Shown: piece after piece, positions 3,669 through 9,799 of the stretch
How the letters are laid out: the number at the start of each line of letters is the position of its first letter
Position numbering within the stretch: position 1 is the stretch's first letter
From: a virus
Taxonomy: Duplodnaviria; Heunggongvirae; Uroviricota; Caudoviricetes
DNA length: 54,996 nucleotides
IMG/VR virus record: IMGVR_UViG_3300045988_171436
Location: 1 to 54,996 of that record
Direction: 5' to 3' (one strand)
Notes under the pieces: model-generated
The model's database searches: none
Told to the model about the DNA's origin: nothing
What the model saw: the letters and a program-made list of their open reading frames with translations, nothing else
Translations under genes and position numbers: made by a program

Positions 3669-4031
3669 TTAACGACCTGCTGCGCGGAGTTTTCCGTCAG
3701 GTTCACCGGCAAGAGTCAGTAACTGTCCCTGGTCTTCCTGCAGAATAGTCAGGCGACCACCGCGATTGACATACATCGGCGTTTCGGTGGTGTCTTCTTC
3801 GGAAATTTTCCCGCGGTTAGTCGGGCGAACATATGAGAGTTTGTGTTTGATTTTCACTCGGTTCTCATCAAACGGTTCGATTTCCAGGTTGAGCGAGACC
3901 TTACCTTTGGTTTTCGTGTTCATCACACCGGAAGCGACTTCACTGAGAACTGCGCCGATTTTGGTTTCAAATACGCCGCCGTCCAGCTCCCCGATAAATG
4001 CCTGCACATCAGTACTGCGTTCGCTAGCCAT
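3669..4031 (-). CDS. Hypothetical phage protein (121 aa from internal ATG)
   Basis: Protein-like sequence begins at MASERSTDVQAF...; the N-terminal extension of ORF 3669..4349 runs through a GC-rich structured region and looks non-coding. Confidence 0.4.
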   Translation of the reverse strand: MASERSTDVQAFIGELDGGVFETKIGAVLSEVASGVMNTKTKGKVSLNLEIEPFDENRVKIKHKLSYVRPTNRGKISEEDTTETPMYVNRGGRLTILQEDQGQLLTLAGEPDGKLRAAGR

Positions 4032-4499
4032 TTTGCTGCTCCTCATCATATCGACCCTGCAAGGTCGGTTAGTTTCTCCACAAAACAGAGAAGAACACCT
4101 GCGGTGACTGCCGCCCGGATGGATTGGGTTATGAGCCCGTCGTCCGGTGATGCTCTTCTCTGTTTTGTAAAAAGGACGGTACCAGCCGGAAGCAAGGGTA
4201 CAAGCTGGTACCGCCAAGACTACACACAGCATAAAGTTGTGGTGCCGGGTGCCTCCCGGTGCCTGGCGAAGGTTGCACACCAGGCGGGTGGGTATCCACA
4301 GAAGGTCGACTGTCAGCCTCAACCTTAACCCGCGTGCGCTGAGCCGCATTCACCACAACGCTAAGGATTCTCTCTGGTTGAAAATACTTAGCTGTTATGT
4401 GCCTGCTTTTAGCCACATCAGGCGAGGTGGACCTAGTTATTCCCCAACAACAAGGATTCGGTTAATCTGGTTATCCCCAACAACGCAAAAGGAAAAGAA

Positions 4500-4934
4500 A
4501 TGTCCGGTAATATCTATACGCTGTACAAATCCCACTGTGAAAATGTTGGAAAGTATCGGGGCATTGAAATCAGTGGGGTAGTGTCATCAGTCGAAATAAG
4601 CAAAGTTGAATCAAGGGCAACATTACTTACTCTTTTGGACCTTGTCTTACATGAGCACCGGAAGAAATTCGGCACTCCCTATAATCAGTTGAATGGGAAA
4701 AAGGCTCTGGTTCACCTTATTCTGATGAAGCATCACTGGATGCCAAAACAGATTAATGAGATGAAATTTGATGAACTTCTTCTTTCAATTCAGGATGAAC
4801 TCACACTTGATAAAATAAGCGTAACCGCCCAGAAATTTTTAGATTATCGAGACTGGAGATCACAAATTCATCACTTTGATGATTTTGACGAAAATGAATG
4901 GGATCCTAATTTGTCTGCACAATATCTAAAGTAA
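4500..4934 (+). CDS. Hypothetical protein (144 aa), antisense moron in early-left region
   Basis: AT-rich ORF opposite to surrounding leftward genes; own upstream direct repeats and downstream terminator. Confidence 0.5.
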   Translation: MSGNIYTLYKSHCENVGKYRGIEISGVVSSVEISKVESRATLLTLLDLVLHEHRKKFGTPYNQLNGKKALVHLILMKHHWMPKQINEMKFDELLLSIQDELTLDKISVTAQKFLDYRDWRSQIHHFDDFDENEWDPNLSAQYLK

Positions 4935-5127
4935 CATCCTGTGATAAAACCGTGATTTCCTGATCCAGTTTTTTTAAGGAGTCTATTGTTTCCTGTCGAT
5001 AAGACAGCACTTCACGAAGCTGGTTTATAGCTGCCAGCTTCTTTGTCATCCACTCATAAATTTCCTCATCTGTGTAGCCAGGCGCGACGATTTTGGGTTC
5101 TGTTTTGTGCATTTCACATCTCCTCAA
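4906..5127 (-). CDS. Hypothetical small protein (73 aa)
   Basis: First gene of leftward operon downstream of the putative pL/OL region. Confidence 0.35.
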   Translation of the reverse strand: MRRCEMHKTEPKIVAPGYTDEEIYEWMTKKLAAINQLREVLSYRQETIDSLKKLDQEITVLSQDVTLDIVQTN

Positions 5128-5171
5128 GTTATCAGTTACTTGTTGATGGGGACCAGATTGTTAAAGAGCTA

Positions 5172-5194
5172 AGCGTCCTGTAGGGCGCTTTTTT
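5172..5194 (+). terminator. Rho-independent terminator-like hairpin plus T-run
   Basis: AGCGTCC-TGTA-GGGCGCT followed by TTTTTT. Confidence 0.45.
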
Positions 5195-5360
5195 GTTGCT
5201 AACGAATCATCCTGGACTTCATATGCCCCAGGCGGCTACTTCGTGGGCGTCCTGCCTGTTCGTTTTTGACATTTACTGACTGCTTACGACACATGCACCG
5301 TGTTGCAACCAGATTTTGTTGTAATCCTGTAGTTGGTCTGGAACAAAAGATAAAATTAAA

Positions 5361-5397
5361 TTGCGAGATATGCAAGTGATGTTTGCGAAATATGCAA
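5361..5397. promoter_or_regulatory. OL-like operators: two direct TTGC-N7-GCAA sites
   Basis: TTGCGAGATATGCAA (5361-5375) and TTGCGAAATATGCAA (5383-5397); same half-site pattern as the OR site. Confidence 0.5.
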
Positions 5398-5451: not shown

Positions 5452-6144
5452 TTAATTATGTCTCTTAAGGGTTTGCGACTGACTGATTAAGACCTTTCCA
5501 AAGACCATGAATCGGTGTTCGTTTTCGCTAGTAATTCCCCATTCACGGTAAATCTGGTTATCAGAAATCACCAGCAGTTTGTCAGGAATCATTTGAAGTC
5601 TTTTAACGTATATTTTGTCATCAAAACCAAAGACATATATACCATCACCATCAAACTGATTGATGCTGACATCAACGAAGATGAGATCTCCTGGCTCAAT
5701 GGTTGGACACATACTGTCCCCACGAACGTTGATAACTTTGATGTGATTGGCTGGTCGTCCGCCGAACATTGATACAGCATTATCAGTTCTGTATTCGATG
5801 GCATGAATCACATCAATGACATCACCGCCCTGGATAAGGCCATTTCCCGCACTGGCACTGATATCCAGCATTTCAATACGGAACACATCCTTCACCTGCG
5901 CAACATCCTCATTATTACTGTTTTTATATACAGTATTACTTTTGTGGGCAGAGGTAAAGAGATCAGCAATATCAACACCTAAGCTCTTGGCAATATTACT
6001 CAGTGTTTGTTCGGTAAATTGTTTTTGCTTACCCGTTTCTAAGCGCGAGATGTTCGCCGCATCTACTCCTATTGCTTCAGCGAGATCGGCGATTTTCATG
6101 TTCTTCGCTTGGCGAAGTTGTCTGACTCGGTTTCCTATGTTCAT
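5452..6144 (-). CDS. cI: CI-like repressor (HTH-XRE plus S24 LexA-type peptidase domain)
   Basis: 230 aa; N-terminal HTH (IADLAEAIGVDAANISRLETGKQ); C-terminal GDSM serine motif and conserved Lys (VFGKVL) typical of autocleaving repressors; divergent from cro. Confidence 0.85.
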   Translation of the reverse strand: MNIGNRVRQLRQAKNMKIADLAEAIGVDAANISRLETGKQKQFTEQTLSNIAKSLGVDIADLFTSAHKSNTVYKNSNNEDVAQVKDVFRIEMLDISASAGNGLIQGGDVIDVIHAIEYRTDNAVSMFGGRPANHIKVINVRGDSMCPTIEPGDLIFVDVSINQFDGDGIYVFGFDDKIYVKRLQMIPDKLLVISDNQIYREWGITSENEHRFMVFGKVLISQSQTLKRHN

Positions 6145-6164: not shown

Positions 6165-6213
6165 TTGCGTGATAAGCAAATCAACTTGCGCAAAATAATT
6201 GCGTGAAATAACA
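6165..6213. promoter_or_regulatory. OR-like operator region between cI and cro
   Basis: TTGCGTGATAAGCAA (6165-6179), palindrome TTGCGCAA (6186-6193) and degenerate TTGCGTGAAATAACA (6199-6213); GGAGG RBS at 6233-6237 before cro. Confidence 0.5.
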
Positions 6214-6241
6214 TGCATAACGCGCAATATTTGGAGGTCAT

Positions 6242-8823: not shown

Positions 8824-9476
8824 TGAGTAATAAATATTGCCAGGCGCTGGTGGAACTGCGGAATAAACCAGCCCATGAACTGAAGGAAGTGGGAGATCAG
8901 TGGCGCACGCCGGATAACATTTTCTGGGGAATTAACACCCTGTTTGGTCCGTTTGTTCTGGATCTGTTCACTGACGGTGATAACGCCAAATGTGCCGCGT
9001 ATTACACGGCGGAAGACAACGCGCTGGCGCATGACTGGTCAGAACGTCTTGCGGAGCTTAAAGGTGCTGCCTTTGGTAATCCCCCATACAGCCGCGCCAG
9101 TCAGCATGAGGGGCAATACATCACCGGCATGCGTTACATCATGAAGCATGCCAGTGCCATGCGTGATAAAGGCGGGCGCTATGTTTTCCTGATCAAAGCT
9201 GCCACCAGCGAAGTGTGGTGGCCGGAAGATGCAGACCATATTGCTTTTATTCGCGGGCGTATTGGTTTTGAACTGCCTGTCTGGTTTATCCCGAAAGACG
9301 AGAAGCAGGTGCCGACAGGAGCGTTCTTCGCTGGTGCTATTGCTGTTTTCGATAAGACCTGGAAGGGACCGGCAATCAGCTACATCGGGCGCGATGAACT
9401 TGAGACATGTGGTGAGGCGTTTCTGGCGCAGGTTCGCCAGCAGGCGGAAAAACTGGTCAGGGAGATGGCGGCATGA
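8823..9476 (+). CDS. Phage Dam-like N6-adenine DNA methyltransferase
   Basis: FGNPPYS motif (NPPY catalytic motif IV); TAATG stop/start overlap with upstream gene. Confidence 0.75.
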   Translation: MSNKYCQALVELRNKPAHELKEVGDQWRTPDNIFWGINTLFGPFVLDLFTDGDNAKCAAYYTAEDNALAHDWSERLAELKGAAFGNPPYSRASQHEGQYITGMRYIMKHASAMRDKGGRYVFLIKAATSEVWWPEDADHIAFIRGRIGFELPVWFIPKDEKQVPTGAFFAGAIAVFDKTWKGPAISYIGRDELETCGEAFLAQVRQQAEKLVREMAA

Positions 9477-9799
9477 CGACATTAACTCAATGCCAGCAGC
9501 AGGTGCTGGATATGCTGATTTCTTATCAGAAAGAACGTGGCTTCCCGCCAACCAATCAGGAGGTGGCTACCATGCTGGGATACCGTTCAGTGAATGCAGC
9601 GGTGGAGCATCTTCGCGCACTGGAGAAAAAAGGCGTCATCACGATAAAGCGTGGCGTGGCACGGGGGATAACGCTTCATACCGCGGTGAAGGACGACGAC
9701 AGCGAGGCGGTCGGGATTATCCGCTCACTGCTTGCCGGTGAGGAAAACGCCAGGCTGCGTGCAGCCCACTGGTTACATGAGAGGGGCCTGAAAGTATGA
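9473..9799 (+). CDS. LexA-N-terminal-like winged-HTH DNA-binding protein
   Basis: 108 aa, MTTLTQCQQQVLDMLISYQKERGFPPTNQEVATMLGYRSVNAAVEHLRALEKKGVI. Confidence 0.45.
   Translation: MTTLTQCQQQVLDMLISYQKERGFPPTNQEVATMLGYRSVNAAVEHLRALEKKGVITIKRGVARGITLHTAVKDDDSEAVGIIRSLLAGEENARLRAAHWLHERGLKV

What the first reader, a model, noticed from the sequence alone, without database searches (positions are those of the whole stretch)
4500..5194. Antisense 144-aa gene within the leftward early operon with its own terminator
Gene 4500-4934 is transcribed opposite to all neighbouring early-left genes, is AT-rich, is preceded by direct repeats and followed by a plus-strand terminator (5172-5194). This is a lysogen-expressed moron candidate, positionally analogous to sieB/rex-type genes.
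Basis: partly seen in the sequence, partly recalled or inferred. Interest (0 to 1): 0.45.

Follow-up and report, generated by a model that had tools for sequence, protein, structure and literature searches.

The report
Counter-oriented prophage moron with convergent partner gene
The backwards-facing 144-aa gene is a real, conserved prophage accessory gene of unknown function that always travels with a small convergent, overlapping partner gene and sits in a swappable cassette slot next to the phage repressor, which makes it a good but untested candidate for a lysogen-expressed protection module.

Summary
ORF 4500-4934(+) is a real gene (NCBIfam NF033230 "ECs1072 family", PHROG 5286). It has 76 clusters of ~145-155 aa relatives and 20 synonymous versus 3 non-synonymous polymorphisms. 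It lies antisense in the early-left operon of an SfIV/e14-like prophage and has low GC (38% against 48%). Two exact CCCCAACAAC repeats precede it, and a strand-specific + terminator follows at 5171-5198.

- A 68-aa YdfC-like gene (B, 4906-5112, minus strand) lies between the ORF and that terminator, convergent with the ORF and overlapping its 3' end by 29 nt. This A/B pairing recurs in 14 of 15 contexts examined. B always points with a lytic operon (pL, pR, Q-late or P2 Pe) and A always points against it.
- The repeats and the terminator belong to a shared frame that holds at least 10 alternative + strand cargos in 114 loci.
- The second repeat is one arm of cassette-flanking inverted repeats that co-vary with the cargo.

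The parts
4431..4499 (+). Left part of the cassette frame and the 5' region of gene A. It holds direct repeats 4437-4451 and 4471-4484, a -10-like GTTAAT at 4461-4466, inverted-repeat arm IR-L at 4464-4485, and the Shine-Dalgarno AAGGA at 4489-4493.
   Evidence: The segment 4431-4484/4493 is shared at 93-99% identity with loci that carry unrelated + strand cargo. The hexamer at the same position reads TATAAT, GATAAT or TATTAT in other cargo types. No consensus promoter was scored.
4500..4934 (+). Gene A: a 144-aa soluble all-helical protein of the ECs1072 family.
   Evidence: NF033230 at 157.8 bits against a cut-off of 70. phrog_5286 at 1.5e-90. 76 representative clusters. AF2 pLDDT 94.4. 20 synonymous and 3 non-synonymous polymorphisms. 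pI 6.4 and no transmembrane segment.
4906..5112 (-). Gene B: a 68-aa acidic coiled-coil protein of the YdfC family, convergent with A and overlapping it by 29 nt. It is the first gene downstream of the putative pL.
   Evidence: phrog_1744 at 6e-35. 41% identity to phage genes annotated ydfC. The conserved N-terminal motif EP..x..[ST]xxE[LI]xxW[LM] appears in partners of distant A homologues. Annotated by PGAP.
5016..5041 (+). Stable hairpin inside B followed by TTTGT. It is a possible proximal stop for the A transcript.
   Evidence: -15.6 kcal/mol, z -4.65.
5139..5159 (.). Inverted-repeat arm IR-R, complementary to IR-L and to the first direct repeat.
   Evidence: I1 is 20 nt at 75% complementarity; I3 is 14 nt at 93%. 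IR-L and IR-R co-vary across cargo types. Long-range pairing is predicted in the MFE for all 10 types.
5171..5198 (+). Intrinsic terminator of the + strand slot.
   Evidence: It directly follows the stop codon (about 20 nt) in the 171-aa cargo type, and it is present in at least 114 loci.
5201..5267 (-). Conserved structured leader of the early-left transcript, forming the right border of the variable slot.
   Evidence: Conserved in SfII, SfV, e14 and others. The hairpin shows compensatory changes.
5347..5397 (-). Putative pL (TTGCAT-17-TATCTT, 5375-5347) with two operators TTGCGAnATATGCAA (5361-5375 and 5383-5397).
   Evidence: Read from the sequence. The operator half-sites recur between the repressor gene and cro. 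In relative L015 an 11/12 consensus promoter sits at the same place upstream of B.
4166..4389 (-). STnc100-like sRNA with a DicF-like 3' part, forming the left border of the slot.
   Evidence: Rfam RF02076 at 43.4 bits (gathering 47), E 2e-8, full length. DicF at 19.4 bits.

Best explanation
Shown.
- The region is an accessory cassette (moron) in the variable slot between the repressor/pL region and a DicF/STnc100-like sRNA of an SfIV/SfV/e14-type prophage integrated at thrW.
- The cassette holds two genes. A is the 144-aa ECs1072-family gene on the + strand. B is a 68-aa YdfC-family gene on the minus strand.
- A and B are convergent and their 3' ends overlap. They are inherited together across lambdoid and P2-like phages.

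Inferred mechanism.
- In the lysogen the repressor silences pL. A is then transcribed from a weak promoter whose -10-like element lies at 4461-4466.
- The A transcript ends at the hairpin at 5016-5041 or at the terminator at 5171-5198. Either way it is antisense to part or all of B.
- On induction, pL fires. Its transcript first encodes B and then runs antisense across A. This makes B and shuts A off by transcriptional interference and RNA duplex formation, in the manner of an excludon.

Inferred function (low certainty).
- A and B are a cognate antagonistic pair.
- A acts in the lysogen as a protective factor. It may exclude or abort superinfecting phages, possibly by acting on YdfC-type early proteins, or it may guard against leaky early functions.
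- B is the lytic-phase partner that relieves or escapes A, so the prophage's own induction is not blocked.

The direction of antagonism and the target are unknown.
For: A is a real gene.

Slot and moron status.
- Outer breakpoints at 4430 and 5201, and inner breakpoints at 4484-4493 and 5147-5156.
- 10 cargo types in 114 loci share the same upstream segment and terminator.
- Low GC.
- The terminator is specific to the + strand.

A/B linkage.
- A B-type ORF, convergent and overlapping, was found next to A homologues of 22-100% identity.
- Contexts: the window; SfIV; Serratia (L014); L015; L016; L017; ST64B (B is sb50); Klebsiella KPP5665-2; L144; L146 and L147; L148; P2-like L149 and L150; Sakai Sp4. 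One further record had a convergent overlapping gene call but no DNA held.
- In every case B points with the lytic operon and lies promoter-proximal. It sits after pL (a strong promoter in L015), after cro/cII, after Q, or after cox.
- B-type genes also occur without A.

Expression logic.
- The e14 ymfI-ymfJ pair at the same slot is a convergent excludon in RNA-seq (PMC12288877).
- ymfJ, but not ymfI, is strongly induced late in the SOS response (PMC11002266).
- ECs1072 is transcribed in uninduced Sakai (PMC2241611).

Protective role by association.
- A SieB-family gene lies next to A/B in L146.
- The cI-adjacent position, own terminator and self-immunity logic are documented for BstA (PMC8585504).
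Against: - There is no transcript, promoter or phenotype data for this locus.
- The promoter scan found no sigma-70 match upstream of A.
- The -35 region is poor, so A may need an activator or may be poorly expressed.
- Polymorphism in B is not strongly constrained (10 synonymous, 14 non-synonymous).
- The pattern that A always has B while B can occur alone fits equally well if A is an inhibitor of B's own lytic function.
- One distant relative on a 1.2-kb contig (L019) shows no recognisable B.
Confidence: 0.5

Rival explanations
1. Safety catch on the phage's own early function. B (YdfC-type) is the primary actor, an early lytic or host-takeover protein. A is a lysogeny-phase inhibitor that neutralises B made from leaky lytic promoters. 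In this reading A stabilises lysogeny and has no role against other phages.
For: B-type genes exist without A, whereas A is essentially never without B. B sits in operons that carry toxic early products such as DicF and DicB (PMC5069750; bioRxiv 10.1101/2023.04.14.536235). The A transcript would be antisense to B.
Against: YdfC has no known function or toxicity (PMC5069750). The same architecture occurs downstream of Q in late operons, where an early takeover function is less expected. No interaction data exist.
Confidence: 0.2
2. Unlinked functions. A is a lysogenic-conversion or fitness gene acting on the host. B is an ordinary early phage gene. They stay together only because their 3' ends overlap and the pair moves as one recombination unit.
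For: Nine other unrelated cargos use the same slot without any B, so the slot itself does not need B. A is under strong purifying selection while B varies more. ECs1072 transcription depends on growth phase.
Against: The pairing survives divergence down to about 22% identity and relocation to four different operon types in lambdoid and P2-like phages. The extent of overlap varies from 29 to over 180 nt. Hitch-hiking alone is therefore unlikely.
Confidence: 0.12
3. Toxin-antitoxin-like addiction module. It would have RNA-level control through the convergent 3' overlap, as in type I systems such as txpA/RatA or bsrG/SR4. One product is toxic and the other transcript or protein counteracts it to stabilise the prophage.
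For: Convergent 3'-overlapping transcription units. Small proteins, prophage location, and strict co-inheritance.
Against: Neither protein is hydrophobic or toxin-like. There are no hits to TA families in Pfam, NCBIfam or PADLOC. B lies behind repressed lytic promoters, so it would not be made continuously as an antitoxin must be.
Confidence: 0.08
4. On the repeats only. The direct and inverted repeats are DNA-level ends of a mobile or exchangeable cassette, such as recombinase or transposase sites. They are neither RNA pairing elements nor promoter or operator elements.
For: Similarity between cargo types breaks exactly at the repeat cores AATCTGG and CCAGATT, and each cargo has its own matching inner extension.
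Against: The cargos are always found in this one frame and one orientation. No flanking repeats occur around A/B modules elsewhere. No target-site duplication or recombinase gene is evident. Thermodynamic folding predicts the long-range stem in every type.
Confidence: 0.25

Closest known systems
BstA/aba of prophage BTP1 (Owen et al. 2021, PMC8585504)
   Same: It is an accessory gene next to the prophage repressor locus. It is highly expressed in lysogeny and has its own Rho-independent terminator. It carries a linked cognate element that spares the prophage's own lytic growth, and short direct repeats at the 5' end of the gene matter for that.
   Different: There is no sequence or fold similarity. 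The BstA self-immunity element is DNA, not a convergent protein-coding gene. Defence activity is demonstrated for BstA and is not tested here.
sieB/esc/sas of P22 and lambda, and rexAB of lambda (from general knowledge; SieB is Pfam PF14163)
   Same: These are lysogen-expressed exclusion genes in the immunity-left region. In sieB, antisense RNA and a phage-encoded escape product give self-immunity. A SieB-family gene lies next to an A/B module in one relative.
   Different: A has no PF14163 or Rex similarity and no membrane segment. Its partner is a separate convergent gene, not an internal translation product.
Excludons and convergent gene pairs, including e14 ymfI-ymfJ (ExcludonFinder, PMC12288877)
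   Same: These are convergent transcription units with overlapping 3' ends that give mutually exclusive expression. ymfI/ymfJ occupy the same slot in e14 and show the expected SOS asymmetry.
   Different: YmfI and YmfJ are unrelated in sequence to A and B. The transcript overlap has not been measured here.
dicBF operon of Qin (ydfA-ydfB-ydfC-dicF-dicB)
   Same: B is a YdfC-family protein. The order is repressed early promoter, then the ydfC-type gene, then a long untranslated stretch, then a DicF-type sRNA, as in the window.
   Different: Here the stretch between the ydfC-type gene and the sRNA is occupied by an antisense protein-coding gene with its own terminator. The sRNA is STnc100-like and below the DicF gathering score.
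Morons of lambdoid phages (promoter-gene-terminator insertions; general knowledge) and P2/P4 hotspots (Rousset et al. 2022, PMC9122126)
   Same: Variable cargo lies between conserved flanks, with atypical GC, an own terminator, and many unrelated alternatives at one site.
   Different: The cargos share one upstream element and one terminator and are bracketed by co-varying inverted repeats. As far as I could search, that bracketing is not part of the moron or hotspot descriptions.

Membership tests
ECs1072 family phage-associated protein (NCBIfam NF033230) / PHROG 5286 | Full-length match to the family HMM above the curated cut-off | tested here: met
   157.8 bits against a cut-off of 70, profile positions 2-142 of 142. 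phrog_5286 at 1.5e-90, positions 1-144 of 144.
Moron (autonomous accessory cassette in a temperate phage) | Present or absent, or replaced, between genes that are adjacent in related phages | tested here: met
   The flanks 4200-4430 and 5201-5267 are conserved in SfII, SfV, e14 and others with different content between them. 10 cargo types occupy one frame.
Moron (autonomous accessory cassette in a temperate phage) | Own transcription terminator | tested here: met
   A + strand-specific hairpin and T run at 5171-5198. It is shared with the other cargos and separated from A by gene B.
Moron (autonomous accessory cassette in a temperate phage) | Own promoter | tested here: inconclusive
   No consensus hit. 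Only a -10-like hexamer is conserved in position: GTTAAT here, and TATAAT, GATAAT or TATTAT in other cargos.
Moron (autonomous accessory cassette in a temperate phage) | Base composition different from the neighbours | tested here: met
   GC 0.38-0.40 against 0.48 for the window and 0.55 for the left flank.
Moron (autonomous accessory cassette in a temperate phage) | Expressed from the repressed prophage | not testable with these tools
   Indirect evidence only: ECs1072 microarray signal in uninduced Sakai and the e14 ymfI/ymfJ data.
SieB superinfection exclusion (Pfam PF14163) | Match to the SieB profile; membrane protein | tested here: not met
   No Pfam hit at E up to 1 for A, nor for 47 family members. 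No hydrophobic segment.
Known anti-phage defence systems (PADLOC-DB v2, including Rex and Abi families) | Match to any component HMM | tested here: not met
   No hit for A or B at E up to 1.
YdfC family (gene B) | Sequence similarity to ydfC-type genes of dicB-type early operons; promoter-proximal position upstream of a DicF-type sRNA | tested here: met
   41% identity over 97% of B, E 2e-9, to phage genes annotated ydfC. Alignment A4. The sRNA hit lies downstream. No curated HMM exists to test against.
Excludon | Convergent units whose transcripts overlap | tested here: inconclusive
   The ORFs overlap by 29 nt, and both candidate + strand stops lie inside or beyond B. Transcripts were not measured.
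Type II toxin-antitoxin module | Two co-transcribed adjacent genes; match to toxin or antitoxin families | tested here: not met
   The genes are convergent, and there are no TA family hits.

The most novel reading that the evidence does not exclude
A/B is an undescribed two-component prophage system. A is made only in the lysogen and blocks an early step of incoming or leaky phage development, plausibly by acting on YdfC-type early proteins. The cognate B, the first product of the lytic promoter, overrides A, and convergent overlapping transcription enforces the switch. In addition, the slot that carries A/B is a cassette-exchange site. Its cargos are bracketed by co-varying inverted repeats that form a long-range RNA stem. 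That stem would either stabilise the moron mRNA or give an RNase III site that excises the antisense cargo from the early-left transcript upstream of the DicF-like sRNA.
Probability: 0.3. Interest if true: 0.75.

Novelty: new variant of a known kind. Interest (0 to 1): 0.55.

Why it matters
If the inferred logic holds, four things follow.
- A catalogued "hypothetical" phage family (ECs1072) would gain a role. It is present in roughly 400 of 5,426 complete E. coli genomes at this one site alone.
- YdfC, a y-gene of the well-studied dicBF operon, would gain a first functional partner.
- There would be a second example, mechanistically different from BstA/aba, of how a prophage carries a lysogen-state protective factor without harming its own induction.
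- The shared frame with co-varying flanking repeats would be a compact natural expression slot for swapping cargo genes. It would also be a convenient handle for mining further unknown prophage accessory genes.

If A turns out to have no phenotype, the locus is simply one more well-delimited moron.

Tried and rejected
- Sequence searches for A found nothing: Pfam, PADLOC and PDB by sequence and by profile.
- The afdb50 library was not available.
- The HEPN motif Rx4-6H was looked for by eye and is absent.
- YmfI and YmfJ of e14, and the 135-aa gene after ydfC in PPompW, were tested as hidden homologues of A or B. All were negative.
- Profiles of B hit only designed or natural coiled coils.
- The search for related loci with the broad alignments failed for lack of conserved stretches. 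The narrow alignment gave 3 loci.
- Flanking inverted repeats were sought around A/B modules at other genome positions, and none was convincing.
- An invertible-segment reading of the repeats was rejected because all 114 loci have the cargo in one orientation.
- An attempt to tell which strand's RNA uses the long-range stem, from G-U against A-C asymmetry and from folding both strands, was not decisive.
- Literature searches by accession, locus tag and PHROG number found nothing.
- The alternative cargos have no Pfam or PADLOC assignment either, so guilt by association from slot neighbours is weak.

Full report
**Setting.** The window begins with a prophage integrated next to proA-thrW. It is 100% identical over the region to E. 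coli strain 90-1 and 98-99.6% identical to phages SfIV, Kati, vB_EcoS-569R4 and vB_EcoM-689R6.

From left to right, all on the minus strand, lie:
- int and xis;
- yfdT-, yfdR-, yfdQ- and yfdP-type early-left genes;
- an STnc100-like sRNA with a DicF-like 3' part (4166-4389; 43.4 bits against a gathering score of 47).

The region in question follows. Beyond it lie an S24/HTH repressor (5452-6144, minus strand), cro, and cII-like and replication genes.

Two operators of the form TTGCGAnATATGCAA sit at 5361-5375 and 5383-5397. A TTGCAT-17-TATCTT promoter-like site on the minus strand overlaps them. Related half-sites lie between the repressor gene and cro. I read this as pL/OL by inference. In the relative L015 an 11/12 consensus promoter sits at the equivalent place.

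**Checking the observation.** The ORF, its orientation, its low GC, the direct repeats and the + strand terminator are all there.
- The terminator is oriented. It folds at -11.5 kcal/mol on the + strand and -7.5 on the minus strand, and only the + strand has the T run.
- The stretch between the stop codon (4934) and the terminator (5171) is not empty. It contains a 68-aa minus-strand gene (B, 4906-5112) with a strong GAGGAG ribosome-binding site. B is annotated by PGAP and matches phrog_1744 end to end.
- A and B are convergent and overlap by 29 nt.
- A very stable hairpin at 5016-5041 followed by TTTGT is a second possible stop for the + strand transcript.

**Is A a real gene?** Yes.
- It is a full-length member of NCBIfam NF033230 and PHROG 5286.
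- An exhaustive profile search found 76 representative clusters, almost all 145-155 aa and matching end to end.
- In a 47-sequence alignment, identity falls to about 20% while a pattern of near-invariant residues is kept: L50, R54, L64, G66, A69, H72 and W134.
- Among 37 distinct copies of this cassette in public phage contigs, A carries 20 synonymous and 3 non-synonymous differences.
- AlphaFold2 with the deep alignment gives a confident all-helical model (pLDDT 94.4, pTM 0.88).
- A is soluble and near neutral (pI 6.4). B is acidic (pI 4.8) and looks like a coiled coil.

**The slot.** Comparison with related prophages shows two nested sets of breakpoints.
- SfII, SfV, e14 and two E. coli prophages share only the outer flanks, up to 4430 and from 5201. 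Between them they carry other genes: SfII_36, SfV orf33, ymfI/ymfJ, and a ClpX-zinc-finger gene plus a BRCT gene.
- Other prophages share more. Similarity runs to 4484-4493 on the left, which includes both direct repeats. It resumes at 5147-5156 on the right, which includes the terminator.

A scan of IMG/VR for the terminator sequence returned at least 120 loci, and 114 of all loci in hand have both the left anchor and the terminator. They fall into 10 cargo types, each with one main + strand ORF:
- the A/B cassette (65 loci);
- coiled-coil plus zinc-ribbon proteins of 155-173 aa (three of the ten types);
- a two-transmembrane protein of 159-189 aa, flanked by proline-rich mini-ORFs (three types);
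- a 167-aa, a 170-aa and a 104-aa protein.

In the 171-aa type the stop codon lies about 20 nt from the terminator. The repeats and the terminator are therefore a shared frame for + strand cargo, not private features of A. None of the alternative cargos has a known function.

At the position of the window's GTTAAT (4461-4466), other types read TATAAT, GATAAT or TATTAT. That suggests a -10 element. The -35 region is poor and the consensus scan found nothing, so the promoter remains inferred.

**The repeats.** The second direct repeat is part of an arm (IR-L, 4464-4485) that is complementary to a segment just before the terminator (IR-R, 5139-5159). The first repeat matches the same segment in 13 of 14 positions.

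Every cargo type has such a pair. Each pair has a common core, AATCTGG/CCAGATT, followed by an extension that differs between types yet stays complementary within a type:
- GTAACCCTC/GAGGGTTAC;
- GGATGACT/AGTCATCC;
- GGACAT/ATGTCC.

For those three divergent types, the cognate left-right combination is the best of all combinations by both row and column. Folding the whole 420-870-nt transcript places 9-26 left-right pairs in the minimum-energy structure. This holds for all ten types and for either strand.

I could not decide between three readings:
- 5'-3' pairing of the moron mRNA;
- DNA-level cassette ends.

**The A/B pair.** This is the main new point. Wherever I could fetch DNA around an A homologue, a small ORF with the B signature lies convergent to it and overlaps its 3' end. 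The signature is an N-terminal EP..x..[ST]xxE[LI]xxW[LM] motif followed by a coiled coil. The contexts, by position of the module:

| Position | Contexts |
|---|---|
| Next to the repressor, downstream of pL | the window, SfIV, L015, L016, L146, L147 |
| In the early-right operon after cro/cII | Sakai Sp4 (the namesake ECs1072, now ECs_5703), L148, probably L017 |
| Between Q and the holin | Serratia L014, ST64B (A unannotated, B is sb50), Klebsiella KPP5665-2, L144 |
| In the early operon of a P2-like phage, after cox | L149, L150 |

- A is 22-100% identical across these contexts.
- B always points with the lytic operon and lies on the promoter side. A always points against it.
- The overlap ranges from 29 to over 180 nt.
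- In the Q-proximal versions both strands encode Trp-Asp-Pro over the palindrome TGGGATCCCA.
- Only one very short contig with a distant homologue lacked a recognisable B.
- B is 41% identical to phage genes annotated ydfC. Such genes occur without A in PPompW, Evi and others.
- In Qin, ydfC is the third gene of the dicBF operon, is of unknown function, and is followed by a long untranslated stretch containing dicF (PMC5069750). The window has the same order with A lying antisense in that stretch.

**How it most likely works.**

Shown:
- the two genes;
- their convergent overlap;
- their co-inheritance;
- their constant orientation relative to lytic promoters;
- the oriented terminator;
- the cassette nature of the slot.

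Inferred:
- with pL repressed, A is transcribed and its RNA covers part or all of B;
- after induction, pL transcription makes B and runs antisense over A.

Expression would then be mutually exclusive. Literature on relatives agrees with this:
- ymfI-ymfJ at the same slot of e14 are listed as a convergent excludon (PMC12288877);
- ymfJ rises by log2 4-4.8 late in the SOS response, while ymfI barely moves (PMC11002266);
- ECs1072 gives a signal in uninduced Sakai that drops 4-fold at entry into stationary phase (PMC2241611).

The biochemical role is not known. Three points make me favour a cognate antagonistic pair with a lysogen-state protective role: the strict dependence of A on B, the promoter-proximal place of B, and the presence of a SieB-family gene beside one A/B module. 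The logic would be that shown for BstA/aba (PMC8585504) and for sieB/esc (general knowledge). The evidence does not separate this from a safety catch acting on the phage's own B. I put about 0.85 on the architectural and expression-logic part, about 0.35 on the protective role, and 0.5 overall.

**Comparison and novelty.** The gene family is catalogued but uncharacterised. The locus meets the moron criteria that can be tested in silico. It fails membership of SieB, Rex, PADLOC families, type II TA and HD-type folds. As far as my searches reached, three features are not described:
- the obligate convergent partnership of the ECs1072 family with a YdfC-type gene across lambdoid and P2-like phages;
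- the shared frame used by ten cargos;
- the co-varying flanking inverted repeats.

I classify it as a new variant of a known kind. Interest is moderate (0.55). The case is clearly delimited, widespread and directly testable, but it has no functional data and no informative homology.

Noticed in passing
window 4166-4389 (-): A full-length STnc100-like sRNA match (43.4 bits, gathering 47) whose 3' part resembles DicF (19.4 bits). It lies under ORFs annotated elsewhere as ymfH, 'frameshifted hypothetical protein' or SfIV_34/35, which are therefore probably not coding.
   Followed up: partly
window 5201-5267 (-): A 67-nt element in the putative pL leader is conserved in SfII, SfV, e14 and many IMG/VR contigs. 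Its hairpin CCUGG...CCAGG shows compensatory changes (7 double-sided changes over two pairs), and a small GGC/GCC hairpin also co-varies. No Rfam family matches. It may be a processing or antitermination signal.
   Followed up: partly
window 5361-5397 and 6165-6227: Repressor operator candidates of the form TTGCGAnATATGCAA: two exact copies at pL and degenerate copies between the repressor gene and cro.
   Followed up: partly
L009 1621-2540 and L011 1576-2450 (same slot, other cargo): A 159/164-aa two-transmembrane protein is flanked by several mini-ORFs that end in proline-rich peptides of the type HVPxxPxPxPKP. No Pfam or PADLOC hit.
   Followed up: no
L020 (ST64B) 2345-2779/2709-3068; L021 (KPP5665-2) 2318-2791/2697-2954; L014 4992-5435/5362-5604: In Q-proximal A/B modules the overlap is long, and both strands encode Trp-Asp-Pro over the palindrome TGGGATCCCA (EWDP in A, FPWDP in B). 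In the window, B stops just short of that point.
   Followed up: partly
L020 2345-2779; L021 2318-2791; L152 (Sakai) 9117-9677; L001 (SfIV) 4107-4313: Annotation gaps. The A homologue is unannotated in ST64B and Klebsiella phage KPP5665-2. The B homologue is unannotated in Sakai Sp4 and in SfIV.
   Followed up: yes
L146 3827-4321 (+): A PF14163 SieB-family gene lies between an A/B module and the S24 repressor gene, in the same orientation as A.
   Followed up: no
window 5305-5313 (-), 5152-5159 (-), 4464-4471 (+): The core AATCTGGT occurs a third time in the pL leader (AAAATCTGGTTGCAACAC), about 155 nt upstream of the IR-R copy on the same strand. It may be a protein-binding site or may be chance.
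   Followed up: no
window 3669-4349 (-) and 4237-4581 (+): The 226-aa ORF is an over-extension of yfdP (real start near 4031). The 114-aa + strand ORF (SfIV_35) overlaps the sRNA region and the start of A, and is probably spurious.
   Followed up: partly
window 4450-4458 and 4489-4493 (+): The A leader has two GGA motifs, one in ACAAGGAUU (close to the CsrA SELEX consensus as I recall it) and one in the Shine-Dalgarno. This is a possible CsrA-type translational control and was not tested.
   Followed up: no
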